A program made the translations under genes and the position numbers. From an uncultured Gammaproteobacteria bacterium (GTDB lineage: Bacteria > Patescibacteriota > Microgenomatia > Daviesbacterales > UBA10151), in NCBI GenBank assembly GCA_964524895.1, contig CAZGFG010000003.1:34023-98022 (forward strand): a stretch of 64,000 nucleotides of DNA, read 5' to 3'. Below, in pieces: positions 49,269 through 64,000 of the stretch. A model generated the notes under the pieces. The model was not told where the DNA came from, searched no databases, and saw only the letters and a program-made list of their open reading frames with translations. How positions within the stretch are numbered: the first letter of the stretch is position 1; each line of letters begins with the position of its first letter.

Positions 49269-49726
49269 ATAACCTCAATTTTTAGGTTTTTAATCCAGTC
49301 TCGACTTTGAATGCCGTTCTCAGACAAAAAACTATCTATCTCTTTATTGCCTGTTTCTTCCGACCCTTTCTTTAAACTAATAGTGAACTGGTTGGTATCA
49401 AAATTATATGACATTGAGGAGTAGCTGCCGTTAAAAGGAAGTTTCGTAATCAGCTTCCCAACGGTAGCACTTTGCTTTACGTAATCAGCTTCTTGCTGCT
49501 GGATTGTTTTAATGCTCTCCTGATATACGACTCCTTGGGATGGGATATTGATAGGCAAGGGGGTACTAATAGGGGATGGAGTTGGCGAGAACAATTGGAT
49601 TGGTTTGGGAGTTACTTGCGGAATATTTTTTGGTCCGATAAACTGTAGGTAAACAAAAGAGGTGAGAATAAAAAGCATTCCTACTGCAGAAACTATATAA
49701 CCTAAATTCTTCTTAATAAAATCCAT
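49265..49726 (-). CDS. Small membrane-anchored protein carrying the same C-terminal domain as the lipase-like protein
   Basis: TM anchor and a Pro-rich linker. C-terminal LITKLPFNGSYSSMSYNFDTNQFTISLKKG...FLSENGIQSRDWIKNL is about 40% identical to the tail of the upstream protein. Confidence 0.4.
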   Translation of the reverse strand: MDFIKKNLGYIVSAVGMLFILTSFVYLQFIGPKNIPQVTPKPIQLFSPTPSPISTPLPINIPSQGVVYQESIKTIQQQEADYVKQSATVGKLITKLPFNGSYSSMSYNFDTNQFTISLKKGSEETGNKEIDSFLSENGIQSRDWIKNLKIEVI

Positions 49727-49733
49727 ATTTTGA

Positions 49734-51737
49734 TTATCTCACTTTCTTCATAGGGTAAGCATAATACCATGGAAAATCAGTTGTATTTTTTAATCGGTTG
49801 GCTGGATTTTCATCGTTCCCATCTCTGTAAGAACAATTGTTAGGATCACGAATGTCAACGACTTTAGTTGCGGGATTGACTGCATCAACCACAAATATAT
49901 GATCTACAGTTAAGGCGTTTTTACAATTGGCGCAGGGAAAAGCCTTAGACGAGCCCAGGATTAAGTAGCCCTTGTTCAAATACTCTTTTGCCAGATCTAT
50001 ATTCAAACGCCCATTATCCGCTATATTTGGTCCTACCGTCATTCCTAGGTTGGACAACCAGGCGGAATTTAATGCCAAAGCTAGGGAGCTTCCAGTGTCT
50101 CCACAGGTTCTAGCTCCTACTGCTTGAAACTGCTGGTCCACCTGTGTGGGTGTCAAGTTAAAGCCAAATCCGCTTAAAAGCATTGCCATAGAAGTAGGTC
50201 CGCAGCCAGCATTGCCCAGAGAGCAAACAGATTGCCAAGCTGTGTTGCCCTGGCAGTAAAAAGTTATATTCTCGTTTGGTGGAGCCAGAGGTTGGGTATA
50301 GCTGTTTGAGATATGTCCGCGGCAGCTTTGCATACTGTTCCAGATATCATCACCGTAGTTATAAGGCCCAGTACAGCTAGCTGCTCCTCCATAGAGCAAA
50401 CATCCATAGTAGGTATTAACCAATGCATTAATAGCACCTTTATTGTTAGTCCAAGCCGGACTCCACTTTCCGTTATTGGTATACCCTAGATTACCCATTT
50501 TCTTCAATATCCACCCAGCACCGACAATGATATTGGCTCTGGGGTCACAATAATCCTCGCGGCTCATAGTAGAAACAGTTTTCCCTATCAGTTTTGCTCC
50601 GGCATCAATACAATCATCACAACTTGCCGGATCTCCTTTGGCAGATTTGGTACCGGGAGGTTGGATTTGCATAATTCCCAAAGCACCGGTAGGGCTTTGC
50701 GCACACTGGTAGCTTTTAATTTGTTCATCAGTCAGGTTGACGGAAGAAGGGGATTCTACCCTGATAAATGCAGCCAAGACGGCTGCCGGGATGTTGGTCA
50801 AATTGGAAGCTTCCCTTATGTAAGTCATTAGCAATGGACTTTTAAAAGATTCATCTTTAGGGTTTTGGTCACTTCTTATAAATTTACAACTTGCTATATC
50901 CTGATTTAAGCCACCTCCCGGGCCCAGATTGAGGTTATCAGGCATAGCGGAAAAGAGCAGGGATCCAAATAAAATTACCCCAATTATTATAAGGACAAGC
51001 TTTGCTTTTGATTTTTTTACCCCCGAGGAAAAGCTACTGGATCCTCGTGCTATATTGTTGGATAAATCTGCCCCATAATTTATCATTGACCCCCCGCGTT
51101 TAAGTATAAAATTACCACCTGCTCCTACCCCGGATCCTAAAAAACCTCCTGCAGAGCGGGGGATCTCCCCTAAAAATCCCATTAACCCTCGGCCCGTACG
51201 GCTAATTGTTTTAGCCGTAACTATCTGGGCTTTGCTGGCAAGGTCTTGAACCGGTGCCAAGCTAACAACTTCGGCAGCCTTGCTGCCTGCTAGCTGTGCC
51301 CCTTCAGAAACCTTCTCTGCCAAATTTGTTTCTTCCCGGGGGATAACAGTTTGGGGGATTGGGGCTGTAGTAGTAGAGGGCTGGGCAACTGGAGGTGGGG
51401 TAGAGGGTTGTTGTGGTAGATCTAAATTTGCCCTTGTTAGTTGTTGGTCAAATTTTTGATTTAAAGCCGCATCTTGGGGATTTTCCCTAAATTGCCCTTG
51501 GGTAATCTGGATAAGATATGGGTCTCTTCTTTCCAGCCCAAGCACCAACTTCTCCGTAAAAACTTTATTATCCGGATAGCTTTTGCTATATAAAGGGAAA
51601 TCAAATCTGGCCCATTTAAAGATAAAAGGGTCATAGGGGAAAGTTCCGTACTTACTTCTGTATACTTTCCATCCTGGGTGCCTAAACTTTTGTCTCAAAG
51701 CATCGGTAATAAAAGCAATACGCTCCTTCTTGTCCAT
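49734..51737 (-). CDS. VirB1-like cell-wall hydrolase: lytic transglycosylase (SLT) domain fused to a papain-fold (C39/CHAP-like) peptidase domain
   Basis: TM anchor. SLT motifs FIRVESPSS and ALGIMQIQP. C-terminal Cys/His pair region CGPTSMAMLL ... DHIFVVDAV. Confidence 0.55.
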   Translation of the reverse strand: MDKKERIAFITDALRQKFRHPGWKVYRSKYGTFPYDPFIFKWARFDFPLYSKSYPDNKVFTEKLVLGLERRDPYLIQITQGQFRENPQDAALNQKFDQQLTRANLDLPQQPSTPPPVAQPSTTTAPIPQTVIPREETNLAEKVSEGAQLAGSKAAEVVSLAPVQDLASKAQIVTAKTISRTGRGLMGFLGEIPRSAGGFLGSGVGAGGNFILKRGGSMINYGADLSNNIARGSSSFSSGVKKSKAKLVLIIIGVILFGSLLFSAMPDNLNLGPGGGLNQDIASCKFIRSDQNPKDESFKSPLLMTYIREASNLTNIPAAVLAAFIRVESPSSVNLTDEQIKSYQCAQSPTGALGIMQIQPPGTKSAKGDPASCDDCIDAGAKLIGKTVSTMSREDYCDPRANIIVGAGWILKKMGNLGYTNNGKWSPAWTNNKGAINALVNTYYGCLLYGGAASCTGPYNYGDDIWNSMQSCRGHISNSYTQPLAPPNENITFYCQGNTAWQSVCSLGNAGCGPTSMAMLLSGFGFNLTPTQVDQQFQAVGARTCGDTGSSLALALNSAWLSNLGMTVGPNIADNGRLNIDLAKEYLNKGYLILGSSKAFPCANCKNALTVDHIFVVDAVNPATKVVDIRDPNNCSYRDGNDENPANRLKNTTDFPWYYAYPMKKVR

Positions 51738-51741
51738 AAGT

Positions 51742-53502
51742 TTAGAGTCTTTGTTTAGCTATTAAATCCGCCGGATTAGAAGTAATCAGTTCGTGTTCCT
51801 GCGGGGAAGCTACCACCCTCATTGCCACATGGGTATTACCGGCAAAAAACAACCCTTGCCCGATACCGGCAGAAAGTAGCAACCTTTGTTCGCCTTCCGA
51901 TAGATTAAACACTTGCCCCAACCGGTCGATAGAGGCAGGAGCCTGTTTTAAAAGCACTTGGATAGAGGAGTTAGAGATGACCTCTTTACCCCGCTCTCCG
52001 GAGAGAAAGTCTTCTACATCTTGAGTAATTGTTGTCAGTCCCAAATAATATTTGCGCGCTCTTTTGGCAATATCCACTAAAAAATTTGCCGAGTCTTCAA
52101 ACCGCATTAAATACCATGCCTCGTCTACTATTAAAATACGTTTTTTTAGCCTGGTGCGTATTTTGGTCCAGATATATTCCAGGATCATGTGCATAGCTAG
52201 GGGGCGTAGTTGGTCTGCCAGGTCCCGGACAGAGAAGACGGTAAAAGAATTGGTAATGTTGATATTTGATTGCGAAGAGAAAATCCCCGAAAGCGATCCT
52301 TTAACAAACCGCTCCAATCTGGCTGCCAAAGATAGGGCGACTTTTTCCTCCATCCCCACCAATACTTTATAAAGGTCTTCCATTAAAGGTGGGGTTTTGG
52401 ATTGGGTTTTAGGGTCATCGGTGATCCCCTTTAACTGGTAGGTTTGTTTTAAGGCCCTGTCGAGGATGGCCGACTCATCCGGGTCTAGATTTCCCAGCAC
52501 TAATTTGAGAAATGCTGTAAGGGATAGTATCTTTCTGCCCAACTCATTTTCTCCGCTTAAGACTTCGGCAGAAAGGTCAAAAGGGTTTATTTTAATAGGG
52601 GATGATGCGGAAAAATTAAGATACTCTCCTCCCACTGCCTCGCAAAGAGGCAGGTATTCCTGTTCCGGGTCAATGGTGATAACCTCTGTCCCAAACATCA
52701 AAGACCGGACAGCCTCCAGTTTAACAAAATAACTCTTACCAGCGCCGCTTTTGGCGAATACGACCGAGTTCGCATTTTCCAAAGAAAAACGGTCAAAAAG
52801 TATCAGCGACTCGTTATGCTCATTAATCCCGTACATGATCCCCTCGTTGGCAGTTAACTCGGATGAGGCAAACGGGAAAGTAGTAGCCAAGGAGGTAGTA
52901 TCCATATTATGAGTGAGGTTTAAAAGATCCTGGCCTAAAGGCAGAGTAGACTTGAACCCGTCTTCCATCTGCAGGGTTGTTGCTTGCGAAGACATTGATA
53001 ACGAAGCAAGGGTGGACTCAACCAGCTTGGAGGTGTTTTTTAGATCGTCTATATTGATCGCAGGAACGGTGACATACAAAGAGAATTGGAAAAACCGCTC
53101 TACTCCCTTAACCAACTGGTCCTGCAGGGCTCTGGCATCATCAAGAGCTACCTCCACTGCCGGATCTACAGCGTGGCCTCTTTCCATGTCTGTTTGGATA
53201 GTGGCCTCCATTTCTCCGACTTTTCTTTTAAGATCATCCAATACTCCTTTTGACTGTGAAGGGTAGATGAACATTGAAATAAATAAAGAATGGTCAAATG
53301 AGATTAAAGGTTCCAACCAGTTAGGTTCTATAAACCTTGGATAATTCGACACAAAATAAGTCCGGTAGAATCTGTTATTAATCCGCAGATCGTTAAAATC
53401 CACCTCTATTTCGGCCGGAGCAATTACATCCTGGATATTGAAATTGGGGGTTTGATCATCGGGCATATTCTTGCTCTTTTTAAAATGCGAAAATATATTC
53501 AT
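51742..53502 (-). CDS. Type IV secretion ATPase VirB4/TrbE/CagE, central and C-terminal ATPase part
   Basis: RFYRTYFVSNYPRFIEPNWLEPLISFDHSLFISMFIYP matches the VirB4 mid-region pattern. Walker A FAKSGAGKSYF and Walker B ILIVDEAW. C-terminal VirB4-like (ITQDVEDF, HELITSN). Confidence 0.75.
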   Translation of the reverse strand: MNIFSHFKKSKNMPDDQTPNFNIQDVIAPAEIEVDFNDLRINNRFYRTYFVSNYPRFIEPNWLEPLISFDHSLFISMFIYPSQSKGVLDDLKRKVGEMEATIQTDMERGHAVDPAVEVALDDARALQDQLVKGVERFFQFSLYVTVPAINIDDLKNTSKLVESTLASLSMSSQATTLQMEDGFKSTLPLGQDLLNLTHNMDTTSLATTFPFASSELTANEGIMYGINEHNESLILFDRFSLENANSVVFAKSGAGKSYFVKLEAVRSLMFGTEVITIDPEQEYLPLCEAVGGEYLNFSASSPIKINPFDLSAEVLSGENELGRKILSLTAFLKLVLGNLDPDESAILDRALKQTYQLKGITDDPKTQSKTPPLMEDLYKVLVGMEEKVALSLAARLERFVKGSLSGIFSSQSNINITNSFTVFSVRDLADQLRPLAMHMILEYIWTKIRTRLKKRILIVDEAWYLMRFEDSANFLVDIAKRARKYYLGLTTITQDVEDFLSGERGKEVISNSSIQVLLKQAPASIDRLGQVFNLSEGEQRLLLSAGIGQGLFFAGNTHVAMRVVASPQEHELITSNPADLIAKQRL

Positions 53503-54269
53503 ATATTGTCTGTTAACTCTTCTACAACAAAAGGTGAATTCCTCGTTGGACGGGGGGTCTGATCATTAATAGGAGCTGCAGCAAAGGTTGTACCTGTAGC
53601 GGGAGTGGGTTGAGAGGCTACCGCTGCAGGAGAGGGGAATAGCTTTGGTTTAGGTTGGCTTAAATTAACCGGTTCCACAACAGGTTTATCCGTTAAGCTT
53701 CGGGTTTCTGCTTCGATATAAGAAGTACCGTTATATAGATCATAGAAAAGTTCAATCAGTTGCCGGGTATTCAGTTGAGTGCTTTTTAAACCAATCCGGT
53801 TTAGTTGCCTAATTAGCTGATCCCTTCTTGGCAAAAGCAGATTTTTGCTTTTCTTTAAAGTTGAAGTAAGGTCGTTTTTAAGGCCCAACTCAATTGCAAA
53901 AACCGGTATGACAATATAGAACTTTTTATCCAATACTTCGTTCTCTTTAACAATATTTTGGATAAACTGCCGGTATAGGACCATCATCTGCGAAAGCAGC
54001 GGATTGGTTTGCATTTTTTGAGCTTTGTCCAAAAGTAACAAGTAAGAGCTAATATTTAGCCTTTCCGACAAGATCAAAATTTGTATACTAAAAGATAAGG
54101 AGTTAAGCATTTGGGCAAAAGCAGCGATGATCCCCAGCTGTTCTCTTTCTGAAAGTAACCCAAAATTTACGGCACTGGTTTGTAAGACTAAAGCTGCTCC
54201 GCCACTCTTTAGCAAGAGGAGGTCATCTTTAATATCGCTTATAGATAGGTGCTGCTGTGTCAAACTCAT
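53499..54269 (-). CDS. VirB4 N-terminal domain encoded as a separate ORF (split VirB4)
   Basis: LSISDIKDDLLLLKSGGAALVLQTSAVNFGLLSEREQ resembles the VirB4/TraC N-terminus (h-p-D-hhLLxDGSh...G). It ends in a Pro/Thr-rich linker. Its TGA stop overlaps the ATG of the ATPase ORF (ATGA). 256 + 586 aa is roughly the canonical VirB4 size. Confidence 0.5.
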   Translation of the reverse strand: MSLTQQHLSISDIKDDLLLLKSGGAALVLQTSAVNFGLLSEREQLGIIAAFAQMLNSLSFSIQILILSERLNISSYLLLLDKAQKMQTNPLLSQMMVLYRQFIQNIVKENEVLDKKFYIVIPVFAIELGLKNDLTSTLKKSKNLLLPRRDQLIRQLNRIGLKSTQLNTRQLIELFYDLYNGTSYIEAETRSLTDKPVVEPVNLSQPKPKLFPSPAAVASQPTPATGTTFAAAPINDQTPRPTRNSPFVVEELTDNI

Positions 54270-54273: not shown

Positions 54274-55383
54274 TTAACTGCTGCCGATTACTTTTTTGGC
54301 GGCTATAGCAAGAGGAGGTATTACCGAACCGACTAACTCGATCTGCAGAGCATCAAAAACCAGATTATCTTTTTCCAATTCGATTGTGTAAACTCCATTT
54401 GGCAGCGGAGTGCTGCCACTAAATTGGCCCAGTTTGTTGGTTTTTAGAGCCCTAACAGGTAACCCTTCCTTGTCATAAATAACCACAACTACCCCTTCCA
54501 GGTAGTTATTTTCGGAATCTTTAACAATCCCGTTTATAACGTTTGGGAAAGTGGTTAGCATCAGTTGTGTTTGCTTAGGCTTTTGAGGGGTAGTTACCGT
54601 TATTTTTACCCTTTCCTTAGGTTGTTCTTGGAGGGGTATAGTTGGTTGGGTCGTATCTATATCGGCCAGTCGTTGCTTGATTTCAGAAGCCTGGTTAATT
54701 AGCTGTTGCAGGTTGGCCAAAACATTAGCTATTTCCCGGGAGTAATCAACGTTTATAGTTTGAGGTTGCCCGGCAGCTTCTTTGATTTGATTAAGCTTTC
54801 GTTCATTTTCTATGATCTTTATCTGCAAATTTTGAGCCTCTTTGGCCAATTCTACTGTTTTTTGCAACTCTTCCTGGCTGGGGAGAGCTTCTTTAGGTTC
54901 CGGTTGGGGAACAGTTCTAAAAGGTATCTCTGCCTTGGGGGCGAAAATAGGCGGAGTATTGTTAGGCTGCATAGAAGTTAGGGGGCGCAGTGCCGGGATT
55001 GGAGGGTTTGTTATGGGAGAAGGTTGTCCTACAGGAGAAAGGAACATTGTTAACCTACTTTTAAACAAAGGTTCTTCCCCATAACCCTTATTATTTTTAC
55101 TCCAGGTTTGTTTGGTAGGAGAGTAAACAGCTCTCAAAAATGCTATCAACCAGTAGTCTAAAGACCTGTAACCTATAGGTAAAAAGGCAAAGGCAGCACC
55201 GGTCAAACTGAACATTATTATTAGAGGCCAAGCAATTATCGGGGCAGAAGGTGTTAGGAAGATAAAAAGAATATAGGCAACTACTATTCCGCTTGCCAAA
55301 TAAGCAAACTGCTTGATAGTCATATCTCCTACCAACTTGAATTGGAAAGAGGTGACATTTTGTGGTACCGGGTGTGCTTCCAT
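54274..55383 (-). CDS. VirB3-like two-TM protein fused to a coiled-coil and a C-terminal beta-sandwich (carboxypeptidase-regulatory-like) domain
   Basis: Two N-terminal TM helices (IKQFAYLASGIVVAYILFIFL, IIAWPLIIMFSLTGAAFAFL) in the VirB3 position immediately upstream of VirB4. Pro-rich linker, then coiled-coil (LQKTVELAKEAQNLQIKIIENERKL). C-terminal VINGIVKDSENNYLEGVVVVIYDKEGLPV...GVYTIEL. Confidence 0.35.
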   Translation of the reverse strand: MEAHPVPQNVTSFQFKLVGDMTIKQFAYLASGIVVAYILFIFLTPSAPIIAWPLIIMFSLTGAAFAFLPIGYRSLDYWLIAFLRAVYSPTKQTWSKNNKGYGEEPLFKSRLTMFLSPVGQPSPITNPPIPALRPLTSMQPNNTPPIFAPKAEIPFRTVPQPEPKEALPSQEELQKTVELAKEAQNLQIKIIENERKLNQIKEAAGQPQTINVDYSREIANVLANLQQLINQASEIKQRLADIDTTQPTIPLQEQPKERVKITVTTPQKPKQTQLMLTTFPNVINGIVKDSENNYLEGVVVVIYDKEGLPVRALKTNKLGQFSGSTPLPNGVYTIELEKDNLVFDALQIELVGSVIPPLAIAAKKVIGSS

Positions 55384-55529
55384 AGGACAGATTTTCTCTT
55401 ACTATAGACTCTTATATAACGTGAAAAAATATGCGTCTAGAGATACAAACTGGGTCATTTGCGAGCAATCGTGCCCTTTTGCCTTCTAAACTATCAACTA
55501 GTGGTAAACAATTTTCCTATTGACAGTAG

Positions 55530-55725
55530 AGTAGAAGTAGTTTTATTCTTTAAAGACAATTTAGAAGGAGTAGGTTGGATCAGACCAACCTTAACCAGGG
55601 GAAATCCCGATCGTTTCGGGAGCTGTGCCGCAACCGTGAAAGCCGGACTGCCTGGACTCCTAATATTTCTTCGAGCAAAGAAGGTGTACTTAACCCCTCG
55701 AAGAGGGGTTTTTGATTGGTTAATT
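55530..55725 (+). promoter_or_regulatory. Structured GC-rich 5' leader (candidate riboswitch or attenuator) of the 55726-60542 operon
   Basis: Possible promoter TTGACA (55521) with TATTCT 18 nt downstream. Several hairpins (ggttgg-atcaga-ccaacc, cccga-tcgtt-tcggg) in a segment that looks GC-richer than its surroundings. It ends in a terminator-like hairpin. Confidence 0.4.
55694..55713 (+). terminator. Intrinsic-terminator-like hairpin 12 nt upstream of the start codon
   Basis: cccctc-gaa-gagggg followed by TTTTTG. Confidence 0.45.
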
Positions 55726-57066
55726 ATGACAACTGCAGAAACGAGAGCTGAATATTTTCCCAGGATTGCAGCAAGAGAGGCAAATTTGCCCCCTACACGG
55801 CCTCACAGCCCCGATATTTGGCGCTATATAGAAGAGGAATCTAGGCTCAAGAATACCCCTTTTAACTTGCATCTGGAATGGAAATCTTTTACTGCAAACT
55901 TTAAAGACGGTTTGGCAGAAGGTTTAACTGCCCCGGAGGCAGCCCTGAAGGCGTACCGTGGAACGGAGTTGAATATCAGGAGCTTTATGCGGGAGTTTGG
56001 GGAGCAGGCTTTGGTCCTGCCTCATCTGATCGGGGAAAAAGATGGGCAGATAGTTAACAGCTTTGACGGCAAGCCTATTCTCCCCAGGATTACCAAGAAT
56101 GAAAGAGGCGGGTCAGTATTTTTTGCTTCCCAGCAGCTCCAAACCTTTTTCCAGATGCATAAAGAGACTGGAGCGATGGCATTTTATACCAACCCTGACG
56201 GTTGGATTGGTGTTTTTGATAAAAATGGGAAACCGATTCTGGATAAGGAGGGTAAACCATTCGTTTATAAAAGTAGCGAGACATTTGTTTTCTGGCGTGG
56301 AGAAAACGGCAACTTAAGAGGGGTAACTATTGTAACGGATATGGATAGAGACAAGCATAAGAGTTTGCTGGCATCATTTGGAGTAAAGGATAATATGGAT
56401 GGTGAAAGTGAAGAAGAGGAGATTATGAATATTGTCAGCCATCCCGCTTTCATAGCTGGTGGCATGGACAAATTAAACACCCCTGTTGATGTGGCAAAAA
56501 AAATTGTAGAGATCCGGGGCACAAAAGATATTAGGATAGAACAGATGGATGGCAGTATAGAATACAAACCGGTTTCTGATATTTTTAAGGACTTGGATAG
56601 ATTAGATGAGCTGTTACTTTTTAACGAAACAGGAGAGAGATATTTAGAAGACCTTAAGGAGATGGTACTGACCAATGCCGATCATTTAGAGGATCCGAGA
56701 ATACAACTTTGGGTGATTAGAGGGATAGAGGATGTAATACTTAGACTGACTAGGCAAATCCGCAAAAGGGGAGCCGGCCAGGAGATTATTTTTAACCAGG
56801 CAATTACATTAAGGCAGAAGTCTGTGGAGCAACCTAACTTTGAAAGTGAGGATTTTTCCGAGGAGGTAAAATTTTTGGCCAATAGAGTGGGCTGTGCTCC
56901 GGGATCCTCGCGGAGTAGTATAAGAGGCTATGGAGCTGGAAGGATATCTGGAGATGGGATAGAAAGCACATTTTTGCCGGGAAAGTGTATTAATTGTGGA
57001 AAAGCGGGTTTGGTAGAATGTGGCTGGTGCCGTGGTTGTGTTATGAAAACGTCTCTCAGCGGTTGA
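55726..57066 (+). CDS. Hypothetical soluble protein with a C-terminal Cys-rich zinc-ribbon-like tail; candidate T4SS-associated cargo
   Basis: Start moved to the internal ATG (MTTAETRAEYF). The 89 upstream codons of the ORF track cover the structured leader. C-terminal CINCGKAGLVECGWCRGC. No signal peptide or TM. Confidence 0.45.
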   Translation: MTTAETRAEYFPRIAAREANLPPTRPHSPDIWRYIEEESRLKNTPFNLHLEWKSFTANFKDGLAEGLTAPEAALKAYRGTELNIRSFMREFGEQALVLPHLIGEKDGQIVNSFDGKPILPRITKNERGGSVFFASQQLQTFFQMHKETGAMAFYTNPDGWIGVFDKNGKPILDKEGKPFVYKSSETFVFWRGENGNLRGVTIVTDMDRDKHKSLLASFGVKDNMDGESEEEEIMNIVSHPAFIAGGMDKLNTPVDVAKKIVEIRGTKDIRIEQMDGSIEYKPVSDIFKDLDRLDELLLFNETGERYLEDLKEMVLTNADHLEDPRIQLWVIRGIEDVILRLTRQIRKRGAGQEIIFNQAITLRQKSVEQPNFESEDFSEEVKFLANRVGCAPGSSRSSIRGYGAGRISGDGIESTFLPGKCINCGKAGLVECGWCRGCVMKTSLSG

Positions 57067-57134: not shown

Positions 57135-60100
57135 ATGGCAGAAAGACTAATGCCTGAATCTGCTCCACAAATTATCTTAGCCAGTCGTAGTGGAAAAGAG
57201 ATTGGCAGCGTGCCCATTTCTCCTGTAGAGAGGGAAACTTCTCCAAAATCAGAATTCGAGCATATCAGAGATCAGTACCTTGGTGCACAAGATAGGTATT
57301 GGGGTTTATGCAGCGTAGATTCGACAAGATTGCCTTCTTCTGCAGCTATATCTCACCGATTGTCGTTGGACGAAGCTAGAAACACCCTTAAAGGTTATAA
57401 AGATCAGATTATGGAGTTAGTAAGGGAAGCAGAAGATGGGCATGACCTTCTGGTTGAAATACGTCAAGAACAAGGGGATCGCTATAAAGAGTTAAGAAGT
57501 CTTCCTCCTGCCTCTCGGTCGGATAATTTGGGAAAGATTTTTGCAGGAATAGATTGGGAAAAGGGATTGTGGCAATTACCTGGTTTTAGGGCTTTGGAAT
57601 CAAAGTTTAAAGGGTTACCTAACTTCTTGTGGGAGGAAACGATACGGAGCACAGCCAAGGATATAAGGCGGGACTCTTTGACTGAGGAAGTAAGAGATAG
57701 ACTAATAAGTAGAAAAGATCCTAGGGTAAGTATAGAGCCGGATGTTGATGTTGGAGACCATATGTTTGTAGAGCTAAAACTTCAGAGGGAAATAGATAGG
57801 TTGGTTGAATCAAAAGTAGCCCTCTCTCCTTATATGGAGCAGGTAAGATTTCGGGTTGAAGAGGAAAGCGAAATTATTCCGGCAGGGTCTGAATGGCTAA
57901 ATTACGCGGAGAAACAAGTACCCAACGAGGCAATTGGTAAGGTTTATGAAAAAGTGGAAGAGATAAGAAGAGAAAGTGACCGTATGCTTTTTGTAGCGGT
58001 AGTGCGCTTAAGAGACGAGTATGGGATAGATATTGAGCCTGATCATAAGATTGTGGAGAGGATGAGAACTTTAACCGAAGCAAGAATGAATGCCAAAGGG
58101 GGAGCCGAAACAGTTAATAAAGGCGGTTTTGAATACATGCTTCATTTTCGGGAAAATTACGCCAATAATTTCAGAGGCCATTGGGCGGCTACCTATGCGG
58201 AAGACCCGAATGTGGCGCTGGCTTTCCATTATCTAAGCCATGGAGTAGATACCCAAATTCTTAAGGATAGTAACCAGGGAGAATATTTTAGAGGGTGCCC
58301 AAAAGAGGTGGCCAGACCAAAAAATGACGAAATTCAAAGGTACCAAAAGACGGCTCAAGACAAGATGATAATAGGACTGGCAAGTCATGAGCTGGTTCTG
58401 AAGGCTCGGTATGATGCAAGAGTAAATGATCCGGAGGAAAGAAGAAAAATGGTTTTATTGTCGAGGTCAGACCGTCAGAAGAGAGAGAAGCAGATTTTTG
58501 CTGAAGAACGGGACCGATTCCTTAGCGAACATCCCGTTTTTCAGGAAACCAAAGCTAGATGGGACAGGAGGGATGCAGCGGAAGCAGCTACGAGAGGCAT
58601 ACCGGATTTGGCGAAGTTGGTCAATGTTGATGGGAGATTAGTTGATGATAAGACTAGAAGAGATGCAGTCGAAAGAATAATTTTGGATAAGATAGGAGAC
58701 CATGATCCTTTAGTGGATAATCTCGCCTACCTTAGCGTAATTAACAGGACTAAGAATGGTGAAATAGATAACCAACAAAAAGGTGTGCTTATTGGGGAGA
58801 TTAGAAAAAGGGGAATTTCCGACCAAGAGAAAGCAGCGCTTATCAATGAGGTAGAGGAGGGGAGGGTTACTCAAGAGCAAAAAGATTTATTAACCGACAA
58901 AAAACTATGGGAGTGGGTAGAAGTCAGAAACAAAGCGCATAAGGATCAAGGCTGGTACCCTACGCGTTGGGACGAAATTAGGTATTTAATTGACCGCCCA
59001 GAAAAAGTACTCCTTAGAGCTTTAAGCATGGAAGAGTTTTTACAGATGTATCAATCGGTAGATCTTCCCTCCCTTACTCCTAAAGAAAGAGAAAAAAGGC
59101 TCAAAGCGGCTATCCAATCATTGCAAACAGCTCAAACTTATATGTTATTTGAAGGTATAGCGAGTAGGTATGGTGGTACTAGGCTTGAGATAAAAGATGA
59201 AAACGGGAAAGAAATTTACAGCCCATTCTTTGCAGAACTGTGGAACATATTAGATAAAATTGAGGAGGTAGATTTTTCCACTCTGCCTCAAGGAACCGGA
59301 GATGACGTAGACAGTAAGAAGATAGAATGGTACAAGAATCAACAGCATACCGGAGAGACCGCTATAAGTTACATTGCCGGTGACGGAAAGAAGAGGGAAT
59401 TTGTAATTAAAGGAAAATTTGTTGTTAGAGATCTATTCCGGCGTTATAAAATGTCTGGGCGTTTGCCGATGTGGTCATATTATTTGACTGCAGACGATAC
59501 CGCTCTAAGGTTTTTTGCTGATGCAATGGGGGTATCCCCGGAGAGGAAAAGAGAATTAACAGAGATTCTAGAAGGAGAGAGAAGGATATTAAAGCAGGTT
59601 AAAGATAAATTGGTAGATGCTTTTATGTTGGATCCCGATAATAACCCTCATAACCTTAAGGTTAAAGCACGCAGGGTTAATTGGAAGGGCGGCAATATCG
59701 ACTATAGAAAACTTTATGATGCTAGAATGTATTGGTCGACCTCCGGAGGAGCAGTTGCTACTGACCTCTTACCTATTATGGATCTTGGGATTGAAGACCA
59801 GTGGCAGATGGAGGGGCAGGAGGATGCCAGAGAGTTTACAAGCTGGGTGTGTAGAAGAGATGAATTAGAGGATAGGGAGGTAGAATTATACAACGTGTTA
59901 AGCCCCGTAGATTACAACAGGATGTTAGGGGGAGCCGAGGAGCTAAAAAAGTTGATAGGAGGGGGTAAGGTCAAAGATCGACAGGTCCAAGGCCTTCTTA
60001 ATGATTTGCTGAACGGAGCTTATAAGATTAGAGTTATGGCAATTGACTTAGGATTTTCTGACTGGCTTCAAGATCAACCTTTAGAAAATCTGAGATGGAC

Positions 60101-60542
60101 AAACGAAATGTACGATAAACTAAATGAGGAGCACAAAGCTGGTATGAATAAAGCTTTGCTGGTAGCAGCAGACGTATTAAAGAATCTCACAGACGTTTTC
60201 GATGCTAGAAGGTTGGTAGAAGTTCGTTATCCGAGAGCGCCTAAAAATTGGCTATATGATAATACAGAGATTTGGTATAGGGTGAAAAAATTTATCAGAT
60301 ACTCCGAGCAGTTTAGCGAGCCACCTTTTGCATATGCGACTCAAGCCAGAACCGAATTTGCTATCCGCTTATACGAAGATTACCTGGAGGCAGCTGGGTA
60401 TATTTTGCCCAGCAAACCTAGTAAAGGCAAACCTATTAAAGCCAGTATTGAATTTAGAGAGTCTTTATTCCCAGCGGAGGTTAGAGAAGAACGAGCAAAC
60501 AGAGCATACGACGCAAAGAGCAATACAATTGTCCCTGCGTGA
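57135..60542 (+). CDS. Large (1135 aa) highly charged hypothetical protein with no recognisable domains; candidate T4SS effector or cargo
   Basis: Uninterrupted 3.4-kb ORF with no TM or signal peptide and no P-loop. GC looks slightly above the local background. Co-oriented with the preceding ORF and convergent on the VirB6-like gene with a 22-bp gap. Confidence 0.5.
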   Translation: MAERLMPESAPQIILASRSGKEIGSVPISPVERETSPKSEFEHIRDQYLGAQDRYWGLCSVDSTRLPSSAAISHRLSLDEARNTLKGYKDQIMELVREAEDGHDLLVEIRQEQGDRYKELRSLPPASRSDNLGKIFAGIDWEKGLWQLPGFRALESKFKGLPNFLWEETIRSTAKDIRRDSLTEEVRDRLISRKDPRVSIEPDVDVGDHMFVELKLQREIDRLVESKVALSPYMEQVRFRVEEESEIIPAGSEWLNYAEKQVPNEAIGKVYEKVEEIRRESDRMLFVAVVRLRDEYGIDIEPDHKIVERMRTLTEARMNAKGGAETVNKGGFEYMLHFRENYANNFRGHWAATYAEDPNVALAFHYLSHGVDTQILKDSNQGEYFRGCPKEVARPKNDEIQRYQKTAQDKMIIGLASHELVLKARYDARVNDPEERRKMVLLSRSDRQKREKQIFAEERDRFLSEHPVFQETKARWDRRDAAEAATRGIPDLAKLVNVDGRLVDDKTRRDAVERIILDKIGDHDPLVDNLAYLSVINRTKNGEIDNQQKGVLIGEIRKRGISDQEKAALINEVEEGRVTQEQKDLLTDKKLWEWVEVRNKAHKDQGWYPTRWDEIRYLIDRPEKVLLRALSMEEFLQMYQSVDLPSLTPKEREKRLKAAIQSLQTAQTYMLFEGIASRYGGTRLEIKDENGKEIYSPFFAELWNILDKIEEVDFSTLPQGTGDDVDSKKIEWYKNQQHTGETAISYIAGDGKKREFVIKGKFVVRDLFRRYKMSGRLPMWSYYLTADDTALRFFADAMGVSPERKRELTEILEGERRILKQVKDKLVDAFMLDPDNNPHNLKVKARRVNWKGGNIDYRKLYDARMYWSTSGGAVATDLLPIMDLGIEDQWQMEGQEDAREFTSWVCRRDELEDREVELYNVLSPVDYNRMLGGAEELKKLIGGGKVKDRQVQGLLNDLLNGAYKIRVMAIDLGFSDWLQDQPLENLRWTNEMYDKLNEEHKAGMNKALLVAADVLKNLTDVFDARRLVEVRYPRAPKNWLYDNTEIWYRVKKFIRYSEQFSEPPFAYATQARTEFAIRLYEDYLEAAGYILPSKPSKGKPIKASIEFRESLFPAEVREERANRAYDAKSNTIVPA

Positions 60543-60564: not shown

Positions 60565-62211
60565 CTAAACATTCTTTTTCCAGGGCCAGGGAGGGTTTTT
60601 CTTGAGCTCTTGTACCTTAGAAAGGCCTCCCAATGTTGTGCGATAAGTCGGTTCGCCTTTAGTTCTCATCACCTCTGTTTGGTCAAATAAGCCTCTAACG
60701 CTACCGCTAGCCTCCTTTATTCCACCAGTTCCCTGATTAATATAACTTTGCCCTCTCCCCATACCTGTATTTATAGCTTGTTCAATCATTTGTCCTCCTG
60801 GTCCGGGCTTACCGATAGCTTTACATATTATATCAGGAATAGCCGGAGCTGCGGTTAATGCTCCAAATGCCAGCAGTATTTGTACAAATTTTAAATTAAG
60901 ACCGCCCAGCAGTGGAAGAGCTGCGCTATCTGTTATATTAGGAGCTCCAGATATACTTAAAGGGCCAACTGTTTGTTGGAGTACAAAGGCAGCAAAGTAA
61001 AATATTGCCATAACAGCTGGGAAGGACAATACATTACAAAGCATATTTCTAACCCAATCGGTAGCAATGCTTTGCCTACCGGGCAAAGAGGCTGCCAAAA
61101 AGTGAAAAGGGGCGGTGATAGTTAAAAAGATGATACTTAAGTAGCATTGGATTAATCTAAGAAGCAGCCTTAACATGGAGTAGATCAAAGCAGCTAGAGC
61201 GATGACCCAAAAGAATGTTCCAATTATTTGCGAAGTAAAAATGGTTGCAGCCCCTATCCCGGCAATTAATCCTAGAATGGGGCTTACAAACGACGAATAA
61301 GGTCCTGCTATTTGCCCTACCTGGGCTCCGAATTGAAAAGCTACTACTCCTGCAAGGAGATGTATTGCAGTGTTAGCTGTTCCCTGAATGTTGCTTAAGA
61401 CTAGATCAATGGCATCTACAATTTCTCCGCGTGGGAACAAGGAAATAAATTGACTGAATATAGTCAGAGCGTTTTGGTTTCCAGTGTCTCTTATCAAGCT
61501 TGCTTGAGGATTTCCTGAAGTTTGGGCTGTTTGAAAGTAGTATCCAACCAGATTAGTACCAATGAAAGCAAAGTCTATAATTAAGGCTGCAAAAAAATAG
61601 CTGAAAGTAATCAATATAAGTCCTATAACCAGTCCCGGCAAGGCTGCCTGTACGGTAATAACAGTTTGAGGGTTAACCCTTTGTCTAAACATTACCATAA
61701 GCCCAATGACAACAAACACGATTGCCATAATGATATAAGAAATATTCCTGGAAACTGCCCAGAGGCTGATAATGGGGGAAAGAACTTGGTTACCTGATCC
61801 TCCAATAGTTTGTGCGTATGCTTCTTTTACAAAACCTAAATCCTGCCGCATAAAAACAAAATATTCATATGTTCGCACAGGAGGATTTAGATAAAGTGCT
61901 CCTATATAACCAATAGCTGAACCCAACACTCCATAATTTGGCTCATATTTTGGTAAGTTTCTTGTGATATCGAAAGTTTGACAAGGATATCCAAGAATAG
62001 ATTGTCCTACTAGGACGCAACTGTAAGTATGAGTCAGGCTGTTTACCAAGGCGTCAGTATATTGAGGGGAAACAGAAGGCATATAGGAATCAGAATAAGT
62101 TGCTGTACCGGTAGCTATAGGTGTAGTTTGGGCATAAACAGGAACAGTAAACAGTAAAAAGTAAAAAGTAAAAAGTACAGCAGCGATTATAAATTTTTTT
62201 GGGGCAGACAT
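60565..62211 (-). CDS. VirB6/TrbL-like polytopic inner-membrane T4SS channel protein
   Basis: Signal peptide (AVLFTFYFLLFTVPVYA), an extracytoplasmic N-domain of about 120 aa, then 7-8 TM helices with a long hydrophobic core region. C-terminal Gly-rich cytoplasmic tail. Confidence 0.5.
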   Translation of the reverse strand: MSAPKKFIIAAVLFTFYFLLFTVPVYAQTTPIATGTATYSDSYMPSVSPQYTDALVNSLTHTYSCVLVGQSILGYPCQTFDITRNLPKYEPNYGVLGSAIGYIGALYLNPPVRTYEYFVFMRQDLGFVKEAYAQTIGGSGNQVLSPIISLWAVSRNISYIIMAIVFVVIGLMVMFRQRVNPQTVITVQAALPGLVIGLILITFSYFFAALIIDFAFIGTNLVGYYFQTAQTSGNPQASLIRDTGNQNALTIFSQFISLFPRGEIVDAIDLVLSNIQGTANTAIHLLAGVVAFQFGAQVGQIAGPYSSFVSPILGLIAGIGAATIFTSQIIGTFFWVIALAALIYSMLRLLLRLIQCYLSIIFLTITAPFHFLAASLPGRQSIATDWVRNMLCNVLSFPAVMAIFYFAAFVLQQTVGPLSISGAPNITDSAALPLLGGLNLKFVQILLAFGALTAAPAIPDIICKAIGKPGPGGQMIEQAINTGMGRGQSYINQGTGGIKEASGSVRGLFDQTEVMRTKGEPTYRTTLGGLSKVQELKKNPPWPWKKNV

Positions 62212-62261: not shown

Positions 62262-62594
62262 TTAGGGTTTGGCTGATGGGCATGTAGGGAAGTTGGGTAA
62301 ATTGTTGCACAGAATGCTTAAGTCAAATCCGGTAATACCCGGTACCCCGGCAAAGGTGGCAATAAGTTGAAGAATCAACCAGGCTACTGCCAAAAATAAT
62401 ATCCCCAACAATGCCCAAGTTAAGGCTTGACCGGCTGCCTGCAATGCTTTTGGTTCCCCTCCGGAGGTTAAAAATTTAATACCACTGACAATCAGCATGA
62501 TAAAAAGAGCTACAAAAGCAAGCCCTACCGAAAAGGAGATAATTCTGGCAAATAAATCTTCAAGCTCTTTTAAGCCGGCAGGAGGTGGCCCCAT
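62262..62594 (-). CDS. VirB2/TrbC-like pilin paralog 1 (no signal peptide)
   Basis: Hairpin of two hydrophobic helices around the loop FLTSGGEPKALQAAGQ. Tandem with three similar genes. Confidence 0.5.
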   Translation of the reverse strand: MGPPPAGLKELEDLFARIISFSVGLAFVALFIMLIVSGIKFLTSGGEPKALQAAGQALTWALLGILFLAVAWLILQLIATFAGVPGITGFDLSILCNNLPNFPTCPSAKP

Positions 62595-62639
62595 ACAATA
62601 AATTTAGCATTATAAGAAGAAAGTTATCAATCCCTAGTA

Positions 62640-63035
62640 TTAGGGTTGTCTGGTGGGGGTGGGTATAGTGAACTGGGTAATGCTGGGGAAGCCCAAAAAT
62701 TGAGCTGCTACAGTAGCAAGGGCAAAAGCCACAGCCAAAACTGCCAAACCGATTAGAGCATTCAGGATTTTATTCCTGGCTTTACCGACTGCCTCCTTTT
62801 CACCGCCTGATGTGATCCACTCAAATGCTCCCCAAACCAACATAGCCAAAACTGCAATCACCGCAATAATAAAGGATAAAGTTAAAACATTGCTGATAAA
62901 ATTGCCCAAATCAGTATAGCCCAAATTAGTAGAGCCTTGTCTAGGAGGGGTTATGTTAAGAGGAACATCAGCAAATGCCACTGTTGCCGAAGATAAAAAG
63001 CCTAAAGTGGACAATCCTGCAACCATTTTTTTCAT
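62640..63035 (-). CDS. VirB2/TrbC-like pilin paralog 2
   Basis: Signal peptide MKKMVAGLSTLGFLSSATVAFA. Helix 1 ...VLAMLVWGAFEWITSGGEKEAVGKARNKI, then helix 2 LNALIGLAVLAVAFALATVAA. Confidence 0.55.
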   Translation of the reverse strand: MKKMVAGLSTLGFLSSATVAFADVPLNITPPRQGSTNLGYTDLGNFISNVLTLSFIIAVIAVLAMLVWGAFEWITSGGEKEAVGKARNKILNALIGLAVLAVAFALATVAAQFLGFPSITQFTIPTPTRQP

Positions 63036-63092
63036 AATCTAATCCTATCATAGGCAAACAAATTTTGCTTGTCAATAGCTTAAATGGGGAGA

Positions 63093-63500
63093 TTATTTTG
63101 TAGGATCAGTTTGCAGAATAGCTCTGCCGTAATCTAAATTATAGATATCTTGATTAACAAAGAAGTGAAATCCGGTGAATTCTCCTATAAGCGCCAAAAC
63201 GGCAAAAGCAATAGCCAAAAGAGCAATGCCGATTAAGGCACTGGTAATCCTTTTTTGAGCAGAAGCTATCTTTTCTTTCTCTCCGCCGGATATCAACCAC
63301 TCAAATGCTCCCCAAATTAACATAAAGATCAAAGCTACCCCTGCTATTGAATAGATTAAGGTAATTAAGTTGGACAAAAACAAACTTATTCCTGCTGCTC
63401 CTGTTTTATCTTGGTCTAAAAAAGGCCGCAGCTCTGGTGGGGGACTAACAGTCCCGAATATGTCTTTGACATCTTTACTTGCTTGAGATAACAGCTTCAT
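63093..63500 (-). CDS. VirB2/TrbC-like pilin paralog 3 (no signal peptide)
   Basis: IFMLIWGAFEWLISGGEKEKIASAQKRITSALIGIALLAIAFAVLALI. Confidence 0.55.
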   Translation of the reverse strand: MKLLSQASKDVKDIFGTVSPPPELRPFLDQDKTGAAGISLFLSNLITLIYSIAGVALIFMLIWGAFEWLISGGEKEKIASAQKRITSALIGIALLAIAFAVLALIGEFTGFHFFVNQDIYNLDYGRAILQTDPTK

Positions 63501-63502
63501 TT

Positions 63503-63883
63503 TTATCCTCCTATCAGTTGCAAATCCTTTATTCCAAAAAGGCTAGCCAGTAAAAATTGGATAATTAGAAAAGTAGCCATCAATAGTACAAATCCTATAA
63601 TAGCATGTGTGATCATTTTTTGGGCCTCCTGTAGTTGTTCTTTCTCGCCTCCGGAAGTAAGGTATTTAAAAGCCCCCCAGATAAAATAGACAACTACGGC
63701 AGCAGCAGCCACAGAGAAGGTAGGGGCTACCAAATAGTTTGTACCGGACCCCAAGTCTTTAATATCCCCAAATCCGAAAGTGTCTCCTATGTCTACCTTA
63801 GCCAGAACCGGAGAAGCAAAAAATAGACTGCCGGTCGCTGTTACAAGCCCGAGGATAAACATAAAGATTCTTCTTTGATTCAT
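63503..63883 (-). CDS. VirB2/TrbC-like pilin paralog 4
   Basis: Signal peptide MNQRRIFMFILGLVTATGSLFFASPVLA, then VVVYFIWGAFKYLTSGGEKEQLQEAQKMITHAIIGFVLLMATFLII. Confidence 0.55.
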   Translation of the reverse strand: MNQRRIFMFILGLVTATGSLFFASPVLAKVDIGDTFGFGDIKDLGSGTNYLVAPTFSVAAAAVVVYFIWGAFKYLTSGGEKEQLQEAQKMITHAIIGFVLLMATFLIIQFLLASLFGIKDLQLIGG

Positions 63884-64000
63884 GGGTTAACCCCTTCCAA
63901 CGGCACCCCTCCTTTAATGGGGAAAATACCTGCTGCCCATTGGGTGACCAGATAGGCCAATATAACAATTACCAGACCCACCAACGCCCAAGTGATACGG
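63880..64000 (-). CDS. 3' end of a fifth VirB2/TrbC-like paralog, truncated by the window edge
   Basis: Reverse-strand translation ...RITWALVGLVIVILAYLVTQWAAGIFPIKGGVPLEGVNP* resembles the C-terminal helix and tail of the other paralogs. Its TGA stop overlaps the ATG of paralog 4 (ATGA). Confidence 0.45.
   Translation of the reverse strand, partial: RITWALVGLVIVILAYLVTQWAAGIFPIKGGVPLEGVNP

What the first reader, a model, noticed from the sequence alone, without database searches (positions are those of the whole stretch)
62262..64000. Tandem array of at least five divergent VirB2/TrbC-like pilin paralogs
Five consecutive co-oriented small ORFs of about 110-135 aa have intergenic gaps of only 2-60 nt or ATGA overlaps. 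Each ends in two hydrophobic helices joined by a short conserved charged loop (WGAF[EK][WY][IL]TSGGE[KP][EK]...). That is the hallmark topology of T4SS pilins. N-terminal regions differ: two have signal peptides and two do not, and the mature N-domains are unrelated in sequence. This points to diversification of the exposed part of the pilin, such as antigenic or host-receptor variation or differential incorporation, while the helix-loop-helix assembly core stays conserved.
Basis: seen in the sequence. Interest (0 to 1): 0.75.

Follow-up and report, generated by a model that had tools for sequence, protein, structure and literature searches.

The report
Six-gene T4SS pilin array, Patescibacteria
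The small ORFs are real VirB2-like pilin genes (Pfam PF18895) of the chromosomal type IV secretion system of a Daviesbacteria-like ultrasmall bacterium; such tandem arrays of divergent pilins are already published, and here the copies look like a fixed, conserved set rather than fast-varying alternatives.

Summary
On the minus strand, four complete ORFs (110, 131, 135 and 126 aa) and the C-terminus of a fifth are packed with 45, 57 and 2 nt gaps and one ATGA overlap. An identical metagenome contig extends the array beyond the window to six genes. The extra genes are the full 113-aa copy and a 385-aa protein with a Cys-rich ectodomain fused to a pilin domain.

All six match Pfam PF18895 (T4SS_pilin). 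The next gene downstream encodes a 548-aa polytopic protein whose model best matches VirB6 (TrwI) and DotA. PrgI/VirB3, TrsD, VirB4 and a VirB1-like hydrolase follow, next to dnaA and dnaN.

This is the Patescibacterial T4SS described by Wang 2023 and Quiñonero-Coronel 2025, who report 441 arrays of 2–11 divergent pilins. The kind is therefore already known.

One result goes beyond those papers. The same six genes occur in the same order in seven related complete arrays (plus a 5'-truncated one), and each is closest to its positional counterpart (57% vs 27% core identity). dN/dS is 0.05–0.10 for the five small genes. Only the ectodomain of the long first gene diverges fast.

That favours six non-redundant, co-assembling subunits over antigenic variation or one-at-a-time expression.

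The parts
63880..64000 (-). p2: C-terminal 39 codons of the 113-aa pilin. The full gene would span 63880-64221 in extrapolated coordinates. It has no signal peptide.
   Evidence: Translation. Full gene on L001 3052-3393. PF18895 hit precomputed. ATGA overlap with p3.
63503..63883 (-). p3: 126-aa pilin with an N-terminal signal-peptide-like segment.
   Evidence: PF18895 35.1 bits. Hydropathy. Positional orthologues in L007-L013.
63093..63500 (-). p4: 135-aa pilin without a signal peptide. It starts 2 nt after the p3 stop and has a GGAGG Shine-Dalgarno sequence.
   Evidence: PF18895 34.9 bits. Junction. Orthologues in other species carry a signal peptide plus a Cys-rich ectodomain.
63047..63075 (-). 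Promoter-like element TTGACA-17-TATGAT in the p4-p5 gap.
   Evidence: 11 of 12 consensus match. The TTGACA hexamer is invariant and lies 33-34 nt from the ATG of the p5 orthologue in all 7 related species, although the rest of the gap has diverged.
62640..63035 (-). p5: 131-aa pilin with a signal peptide. It is the candidate major subunit (inference).
   Evidence: PF18895 35.2 bits. AlphaFold2 hairpin 43-75/80-113. 443 homologues, named Daviesbacteria or Microgenomates where a name is given.
62601..62630 (-). Weaker promoter-like element upstream of p6.
   Evidence: 9 of 12 match. A similar TTGAtC...TAAnnT element occurs in most orthologous gaps but is absent from L009 and L010.
62262..62594 (-). 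p6: 110-aa pilin with no signal peptide, a short acidic N-tail (MGPxPAGL) and a C-tail carrying a conserved Cys pair.
   Evidence: PF18895 33.5 bits. Orthologue alignment.
60565..62211 (-). 548-aa polytopic membrane protein, VirB6-like at the level of structure. It is the last gene of the pilin operon.
54274..55383 (-). PrgI (VirB3-like) protein, 369 aa.
   Evidence: PF12666 36.8 bits against cutoff 27.
53499..54269 (-). TrsD-like protein (resembles the VirB4 N-terminal part), 256 aa.
   Evidence: NF041427 TrsD E 4.9e-6 and weak matches to VirB4 N-terminal regions. Literature: TrsD is the most abundant Patescibacterial T4SS component (PMC12102498).
51742..53502 (-). VirB4 ATPase of the MPF_FATA type.
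   Evidence: NF045971 (CD1110 family) 386.8 bits against cutoff 325. PF19044.
49734..51737 (-). VirB1-like bifunctional cell-wall hydrolase (SLT plus Peptidase_C39_2 domains).

Best explanation
**What it is.** The ORFs are five of a six-gene operon of VirB2-like pilin proteins (Pfam PF18895). The operon belongs to the chromosomal, origin-proximal, monoderm-type (MPF_FATA-like) type IV secretion system of a Patescibacterium of the Daviesbacteria/Microgenomatia lineage.

**Shown.**
- Family membership.
- T4SS context.
- A six-gene order conserved across species.
- Strong purifying selection on the five small genes.
- A VirB6-like gene immediately downstream.

**Inferred membrane topology.** Each protein inserts as a helical hairpin with the N-terminus out, the positively charged loop in the cytoplasm and the C-terminus out.

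**Inferred assembly.** The six different hairpins are non-redundant. They co-assemble on the VirB6-like platform, powered by VirB4, into one heteromeric pilus or stalk-like conduit.

**Inferred roles.** The 385-aa first protein carries a fast-evolving Cys-rich ectodomain on a conserved pilin anchor, so it would be the host-contact (tip or adhesin) subunit. The 131-aa protein, which has a signal peptide and its own conserved promoter, is a candidate major subunit.

**From the literature.** By analogy with Southlakia epibionticum, where the T4SS and its pilin series are essential, the structure would serve the epibiotic lifestyle through contact with, or exchange with, a host cell. It would not serve conjugation.
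For: **Family membership.** PF18895 is matched above the gathering score by all six proteins.

**T4SS context.** VirB4, PrgI, a TrsD-like protein and an SLT/C39 hydrolase are present, with dnaA, dnaN, rnpA and yidC adjacent. This matches the published Patescibacterial T4SS layout (PMC12102498).

**Conserved six-gene set.**
- The order long-p2-p3-p4-p5-p6 occurs in L007, L008, L009, L011, L012, L013, in L026/L027, and partly in L010. Each gene's best BLAST hit is its positional counterpart.
- Core identity averages 0.57 for the same position in different genomes and 0.27 for different positions in the same genome. UPGMA clusters the genes by position.
- dN/dS is 0.05-0.10 for p2-p6. For p1 the core gives 0.09, while the ectodomain is only about 40% identical, partly unalignable and differs in length (385 against 453 aa).

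**Operon structure.** Junctions are ATGA overlaps or a 2-nt gap.

**Conserved internal promoter.** A conserved TTGACA promoter-like site lies upstream of p5 in 7 of 7 species.

**Fused forms.** Single polypeptides with 2-8 fused pilin hairpins exist, and one lies inside a pilin array. This shows that several hairpins can act within one assembly.

**Literature.** The pilin series is essential in S. epibionticum (PMC10633639; PMC12857230).
Against: - No T4SS pilus has been seen on any Patescibacterium in the papers I read. The thin filaments imaged on Ca. Mycosynbacter turned out to be unrelated Pam pili.
- Sequence homology to classical VirB2/TrbC could not be shown. hhalign gave a probability of 0.3%, and PF04956 appeared only as a sub-threshold hit in one orthologue.
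- Fold search on a two-helix hairpin is non-specific.
- Co-assembly, the tip role of p1 and the major-subunit role of p5 are inferences. p5 is not more conserved than the other positions.
- The promoter scan as a whole is not enriched over shuffled sequence (9 sites against 8.1 expected).
- No expression data exist for this organism.
Confidence: 0.62

Rival explanations
1. Antigenic or host-range variation. The paralogs would be interchangeable major pilins with different exposed parts, used alternatively or differentially to evade recognition or to fit different host strains.
For: - Paralogs are only about 27-33% identical and differ most outside the hairpin.
- Internal promoter-like sites upstream of p5 and p6 could allow differential expression.
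- Precedents exist in the VirB2 paralogs of Bartonella and Anaplasma (cited in PMC12102498).
- In TM7x, only half of the six putative T4SS 'effector' genes rose in stable symbiosis; PMC12102498 refers to a 'Sec secreted array' of pilins in TM7x, and equating the two is my inference.
Against: - 1:1 positional orthologues occur in the same order in at least 8 genomes.
- dN/dS is 0.05-0.10 for the small genes, including their N-regions.
- Start/stop overlaps imply coupled translation.
- There are no repeats suited to gene conversion or inversion.
- Near-identical strains differ by at most 5 SNPs across about 5 kb.
Confidence: 0.12
2. A membrane-embedded or short stalk assembly, not an extended pilus. 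The hairpins would form a heteromeric ring or channel element of the translocon in the cytoplasmic membrane and cell wall, without extruding a long filament.
For: - Poly-hairpin fusion proteins carry 6-8 units in one chain. These are hard to reconcile with subunit-by-subunit extraction into a long helical filament.
- No T4SS pilus has been observed in Patescibacteria (for the one filament structure found).
- Monoderm MPF_FATA systems normally lack pili (PMC12102498).
- The family weakly resembles small pilin-like proteins of Mycoplasma ICEs (NF045849, E 5e-6).
Against: - Signal peptides, disulfide-type Cys pairs in C-tails and large Cys-rich ectodomains indicate substantial surface exposure.
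- The Pfam family and published structure-based annotation call them pilins.
- Fusions might be proteolytically processed.
Confidence: 0.2
3. Unrelated small membrane or secreted proteins, such as holin-like proteins or Sec-secreted effectors, that merely neighbour the T4SS.
For: - In TM7x, six T4SS-region genes were annotated as putative effectors; if, as I infer from the 'Sec secreted array' cited in PMC12102498, these are that organism's pilin array, the equivalent array was first read as secreted effectors.
- No PDB sequence match was found.
- Fold search was not diagnostic.
Against: - All copies match PF18895 above threshold.
- No holin or PHROG functional hit was found.
- Linkage to the VirB6-like gene is conserved in every related locus.
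- Two long hydrophobic helices would keep the proteins in a membrane or a filament core.
Confidence: 0.05

Closest known systems
VirB2-like pilin arrays of Patescibacterial T4SS (Wang et al. 2023, Cell, PMC10633639; Quiñonero-Coronel et al. 2025, Microb Genom, PMC12102498; review PMC12857230)
   Same: - Same Pfam family (PF18895).
- Tandem array within the published 2-11 gene range, and six genes as in S. epibionticum.
- Low identity between members (27% here against the published mean of 25%).
- Microgenomatia lineage.
- Same companions: TrsD, VirB4, PrgI and a VirB1-like hydrolase.
- Same location beside dnaA, dnaN and rnpA.
- No relaxase or coupling protein next to the locus.
   Different: Nothing essential differs; this is another instance. 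Four points were added here and were not found in those papers:
- Positional orthology and strong purifying selection on each member.
- Rapid evolution confined to the ectodomain of the long first gene.
- Structural identification of the VirB6-like gene in a Microgenomatia locus, where the paper reports VirB6 as scarce.
- The existence of fused poly-pilin proteins.
Classical VirB2/TrbC/TraA conjugative pilins (Pfam PF04956; MPF_T and MPF_F systems of diderm bacteria)
   Same: - Small size.
- An optional long leader or signal peptide.
- Two hydrophobic helices joined by a short, positively charged loop.
- Encoded with VirB3, VirB4 and VirB6.
   Different: - No significant sequence or profile similarity.
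- A longer polar loop and start of helix 2 (SGGEKE...K/R).
- Six different copies per system instead of one.
- The host is a monoderm.
- No evidence of cyclisation or of a processing enzyme.
- Polymerisation has not been demonstrated.
Tandem VirB2 paralogs of Bartonella and Anaplasma phagocytophilum T4SS (as cited in PMC12102498)
   Same: Several divergent pilin genes in tandem within a T4SS locus of a host-dependent bacterium.
   Different: Those arrays are interpreted as antigenic or host-adaptive variation. Here each paralog is an old, orthologously conserved gene under purifying selection.
Major plus minor pilin sets of type IV pili and type II secretion pseudopili (my own knowledge, not tested here)
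   Same: One operon encodes several divergent pilin-fold subunits with fixed, non-redundant roles. Some carry extra domains for tip or adhesion functions.
   Different: A different fold and a different machine. This is an analogy only, used to frame the co-assembly hypothesis.

Membership tests
Pfam PF18895 T4SS_pilin (Patescibacterial VirB2-like pilins) | Match to the family HMM above its gathering score (26.6 bits) | tested here: met
   33.5, 35.2, 34.9 and 35.1 bits for the four complete ORFs. The 385-aa protein scores 29.4 bits. The 113-aa copy carries a precomputed hit.
Pfam PF18895 T4SS_pilin (Patescibacterial VirB2-like pilins) | Two hydrophobic helices joined by a short polar loop | tested here: met
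   Hydropathy for all six proteins. The AlphaFold2 model gives helices 43-75 and 80-113 at pLDDT above 93.
Pfam PF18895 T4SS_pilin (Patescibacterial VirB2-like pilins) | Encoded in a T4SS locus with VirB4, VirB3 and VirB6 | tested here: met
Published Patescibacterial pilin arrays (PMC12102498) | 2-11 tandem pilin genes with low mutual identity (mean 25%, maximum 54%) | tested here: met
   Six genes. Mean core identity within a genome is 0.27 and the maximum is 0.56.
Classical TrbC/VirB2 pilins (Pfam PF04956) | Sequence or profile homology to VirB2/TrbC | tested here: not met
   No PF04956 hit at E of 0.1 or below for the window proteins. hhalign of 63 family cores against 7 genuine VirB2/TrbC sequences gave probability 0.3%. 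Only a sub-threshold hit was seen, in one orthologue (18 bits against 27.9).
Classical TrbC/VirB2 pilins (Pfam PF04956) | Structural match to solved pilin subunits | tested here: inconclusive
Classical TrbC/VirB2 pilins (Pfam PF04956) | Leader cleavage or cyclisation, and polymerisation into an extracellular pilus | not testable with these tools
   Needs biochemistry or cryo-EM.
MPF_FATA-like T4SS of Patescibacteria | VirB4 of the monoderm (CD1110/TrsE) type together with TrsD and PrgI | tested here: met
   NF045971 scores 386.8 bits against cutoff 325. PF12666 PrgI is above its cutoff. The TrsD match is below its cutoff, at E 4.9e-6.
MPF_FATA-like T4SS of Patescibacteria | No relaxase or coupling protein adjacent to the locus | tested here: inconclusive
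   None was found among the locus ORFs or the large ORFs scanned. Not every ORF of the window was scanned.
Antigenically variable pilin paralog arrays (Bartonella/Anaplasma type) | Recent, lineage-specific duplication with relaxed or positive selection on the exposed parts | tested here: not met
   Paralogs predate the divergence of at least 8 genomes. dN/dS is 0.05-0.10.
Holins and other phage small membrane proteins | Match to a holin or phage family | tested here: not met
   No functional PHROG hit and no holin family in Pfam or NCBIfam.

The most novel reading that the evidence does not exclude
The six conserved paralogs are obligate, stoichiometric partners that build a heteromeric T4SS pilus or stalk in a monoderm epibiont. 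Five invariant structural hairpins would combine with one pilin-anchored, rapidly evolving ectodomain subunit that sets host specificity. The fused 'poly-pilin' proteins found elsewhere would be single-chain versions of the same assembly. No T4SS filament of this heteropolymeric kind has been described.
Probability: 0.35. Interest if true: 0.65.

Novelty: already known. Interest (0 to 1): 0.3.

Why it matters
Patescibacteria make up a large share of bacterial diversity and live attached to host cells. In the one genetically tractable species, their T4SS and its pilin series are essential, yet what the system transports and what it builds are unknown.

This locus adds nothing new in kind. The comparative result does sharpen the open question. 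If the six pilins are a fixed, purifying-selected set with a single fast-evolving ectodomain subunit, the system should be studied as a multi-subunit machine with a dedicated host-recognition part. It should not be studied as an antigenic-variation cassette.

The result also supplies a VirB6 candidate for Microgenomatia, where VirB6 had seemed to be missing.

Tried and rejected
- **Profile search of the pilin alignment against PDB sequences:** 0 hits even at E of 10 or below.
- **hhalign against 7 real VirB2/TrbC sequences fetched from plasmids:** no similarity. The VirB2 profile was shallow (Neff 2.7), so this is a weak negative.
- **Pfam, PDB-sequence and PHROG searches for the 548-aa protein:** nothing. 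Only the structure-based search identified it.
- **Repeat search for recombination or inversion substrates in the array:** only the short conserved-motif matches expected of paralogs.
- **Strain-level variation:** the Logan contigs are 99.9-100% identical, too few SNPs for population analysis.
rejected as uninformative at about 30% identity. Orthologue pairs were used instead. dS there is 0.7-2, so it is partly saturated and the ω values are approximate.
- **Exact look-up of the proteins for a source organism name:** no name returned.
- **The 2026 'novel pilus system in CPR' preprint:** it concerns unrelated Ig-fold Pam pili.
Full report
**1. Observation**

All the ORFs lie on the minus strand.

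| Name | Window coordinates | Length |
|---|---|---|
| p6 | 62262-62594 | 110 aa |
| p5 | 62640-63035 | 131 aa |
| p4 | 63093-63500 | 135 aa |
| p3 | 63503-63883 | 126 aa |
| p2 | 63880-64000 (runs off the window) | last 39 codons only |

- The gaps are 45, 57 and 2 nt, and p2 and p3 share an ATGA overlap.
- The four complete proteins are 28-33% identical to one another.
- They share the motif WGAFx[WY][LI]xSGGEKE. It is degenerate in p6.
- Each has two hydrophobic helices joined by an 8-16 residue polar loop.
- p3 and p5 have signal-peptide-like N-termini. p4 and p6 do not.

The strand needs stating and the copy number needs correcting.

**2. Beyond the window edge**

An exact-protein look-up found six metagenome contigs that carry p3. 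Contig L001 is 100% identical to the window over the 2660 nt they share. Four of the other five are also identical over their overlap with the window, and L002 differs by 3 mismatches.

L001 shows that the array has six genes:
- p1 is 385 aa. It has a signal peptide, a roughly 290-residue ectodomain with 14 cysteines, and a C-terminal pilin domain.
- p2 is 113 aa in full.
- p3 to p6 follow as above.

Upstream lies a divergently transcribed SpoIID gene, so the array ends there. No further pilin-like ORF exists elsewhere in the 64-kb window.

**3. Family and context**

*The pilins*
- All four complete ORFs exceed the gathering score of Pfam PF18895, 'Type IV secretion system pilin' (33.5-35.2 bits against 26.6).
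- p1 also exceeds it (29.4 bits), and p2 carries a precomputed hit.
- NCBIfam gives only weak matches to the Mycoplasma ICE pilin-like family NF045849.
- No holin or phage family matched.

*The rest of the locus, downstream on the same strand*
- Two unannotatable ORFs follow on the opposite strand.
- Then come PrgI/VirB3, a TrsD-like protein, a VirB4 of the monoderm CD1110 type (387 bits) and an SLT plus C39-like hydrolase.
- dnaN, dnaA, rnpA and yidC come next.

Homologues that carry a source name are from Candidatus Daviesbacteria or Microgenomates.

**4. What is already known**

This is the Patescibacterial T4SS.
- Wang et al. [quoted passage not shown] They noted that Gram-positive conjugative T4SSs normally lack a pilus.
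- Quiñonero-Coronel et al. 2025 (PMC12102498) searched 3,035 genomes with PF04956 and PF18895. They report 441 arrays of 2-11 pilin genes in 383 assemblies. The arrays are most frequent in Microgenomatia and Saccharimonadia and have a mean within-array identity of 25%. They also report TrsD next to VirB4, proximity to dnaA, dnaN and rnpA, and the absence of relaxases. They suggest antigenic variation or adaptation to host strains.

The finding is therefore a correct rediscovery of a published feature.

**5. Are the paralogs variants or a fixed set?**

One scan of GTDB species representatives with p5 returned 11 loci.

*Gene order and orthology*
- In L007, L008, L009, L011, L012 and L013 the array has the same six genes in the same order. 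L010 shows the same pattern but is truncated at its 5' end.
- Each gene's best match is its positional counterpart in the window genome (45-64% identity against 29-47% to other paralogs).
- Over the hairpin core, identity averages 0.57 for the same position in different genomes. It averages 0.27 for different positions in the same genome.
- Clustering groups the genes by position. p4 and p5 are the closest pair.
- The flanks are also conserved: SpoIID, then the six pilins, then the VirB6-like gene, then a variable region, then PrgI, TrsD and VirB4.

*Selection, measured against a closer relative (L026/L027)*

| Gene | Amino-acid identity | dN/dS |
|---|---|---|
| p2-p6, whole genes | 83-89% | 0.05-0.10 |
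| p2, p4, p5, N-terminal regions | not computed | 0.06-0.13 |
| p1, pilin core | not computed | 0.09 |
| p1, whole protein | about 40% | 0.40 (ectodomain 0.41, dS saturated) |

All values are. dS is 0.7-2, so the ω values are approximate. The two p1 ectodomains also differ in length (385 against 453 aa). The relative's ectodomain shows a weak FN3 signal, and another orthologue shows a weak Ig-like signal.

*Variation at other positions*
- p4 orthologues in several species carry a signal peptide plus a Cys-rich ectodomain that this genome lacks.
- One p3 orthologue has an insert of about 170 residues.

*Conclusion*
- The paralogs are old and individually maintained.
- Fast change is confined to optional ectodomains, above all that of p1.
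- No long repeats suited to gene conversion or inversion are present.

**6. Expression signals**

- p1/p2 and p2/p3 overlap by ATGA. p4 starts 2 nt after p3 behind a GGAGG sequence.
- The 57-nt gap before p5 holds a TTGACA-17-TATGAT site (11 of 12 match).
- Its TTGACA hexamer is invariant and sits 33-34 nt from the ATG in all seven species examined, although the rest of the gap has diverged.
- A weaker site precedes p6 in most species.
- The scan as a whole is not enriched over shuffled sequence. Only the cross-species conservation gives the p5 site any weight.
- The -10 elements lie 6-11 nt from the start codons of p1, p5 and p6. This suggests leaderless or near-leaderless transcripts (inference).

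**7. Relation to classical VirB2**

- The AlphaFold2 model of p5 is a confident helical hairpin. That fold is too simple for a structure search to be diagnostic.
- A profile of the family found no PDB sequence.
- hhalign against seven genuine VirB2/TrbC proteins was negative (probability 0.3%). Those proteins were fetched from plasmids; my recalled Agrobacterium VirB2 sequence proved 99% identical to the real one.
- Only faint PF04956 signals exist in relatives.
- I therefore file the genes under PF18895 and 'works like VirB2'. I do not file them as demonstrated members of PF04956.

**8. Size of the family, and a side observation**

A full HMM scan of 1.84 billion representative proteins found 54,369 hits at E of 0.001 or below.

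Among the best hits are single polypeptides with 2-8 consecutive pilin hairpins, for example P0241 (552 aa, six units) and P0271 (820 aa, eight units). P0241 is an uninterrupted ORF inside a pilin array on contig L025.

Each hairpin has two membrane spans, so the fusions keep every unit in the same orientation. They suggest that several hairpins work together in one assembly. This fits co-assembly better than alternative use, and it raises the possibility of a compact ring or stalk rather than a long filament.

**9. Verdict**

- The antigenic-variation and one-at-a-time reading is not supported for the genes in the window.
- The feature is already known in kind.
- The modest additions from this analysis are:
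  - positional orthology and purifying selection;
  - the hypervariable p1 ectodomain;
  - a structural VirB6 candidate in Microgenomatia;
  - the conserved internal promoter;
  - the poly-pilin fusions.

Noticed in passing
P0241, P0253, P0271, P0256; L025 1777-3435: Single polypeptides carry 2-8 tandem PF18895 hairpin domains ('poly-pilins'). P0241 has 6 units in 552 aa and is an uninterrupted ORF inside a pilin array, flanked by single-domain pilins. I did not see this mentioned in the papers I read.
   Followed up: partly
L001 about 1850-1885 (just outside the window, upstream of the first pilin gene); also L007, L008, L009: CCCTA-rich repeats (agaccctatcccctataccctagaccct) lie upstream of the p1 promoter region in several species. 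No cluster of this motif occurs anywhere in the 64-kb window. This could be an operator or an UP-like element.
   Followed up: partly
window 55459-57066 (+) and 57135-60542 (+): Two large ORFs (535 and 1135 aa) have no TM segments and no Pfam, NCBIfam or PHROG match. The region has an unusually high GC skew (0.28). They sit on the opposite strand between the VirB6-like gene and PrgI. Only distant counterparts (24-26% identity) occur at the same place in L010, so this part of the T4SS locus is variable. They could be cargo or effector candidates.
   Followed up: partly
window 63047-63075 (-), 62601-62630 (-); L001 1880-1897: The -10-like hexamers lie only 6-11 nt upstream of the ATG of p1, p5 and p6, and there is no Shine-Dalgarno sequence. 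This suggests leaderless or near-leaderless mRNAs. p1 has an extended -10, TGcTAAGCT, conserved in most related species.
   Followed up: partly
L007 9237-9965, L008 9394-9945, L010 1818-2426, L013 3220-3816 and 2411-3214: Orthologues of p4, and one orthologue of p3, in other species carry a signal peptide plus a Cys-rich ectodomain of variable length. This genome lacks these. Ectodomains appear to be gained and lost on a constant pilin anchor.
   Followed up: partly
window 62262-63883 (-): There are weak but repeated matches to NF045849, the 'Mbov_0395 family pilin-like conjugal transfer protein' of Mycoplasma ICEs (E 5e-6 to 3e-4). They hint that the pilin may derive from monoderm conjugative elements rather than being co-opted from diderm T4SSs, a question left open in PMC12102498.
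   Followed up: no
window 46910-49726 (-): Three ORFs lie downstream of the VirB1-like hydrolase: 153 aa with one TM segment, 608 aa with only a weak hydrolase hit, and 161 aa with a Big_5 Ig-like domain. They are co-oriented with the T4SS genes and may be uncharacterised accessory components.
   Followed up: no
window 62262-62594 (-), C-terminal tail: p6 and its orthologues keep a pair of cysteines in the C-terminal tail (…LC…x6-10…C…). This is consistent with an extracytoplasmic disulfide and an outward-facing C-terminus.
   Followed up: no
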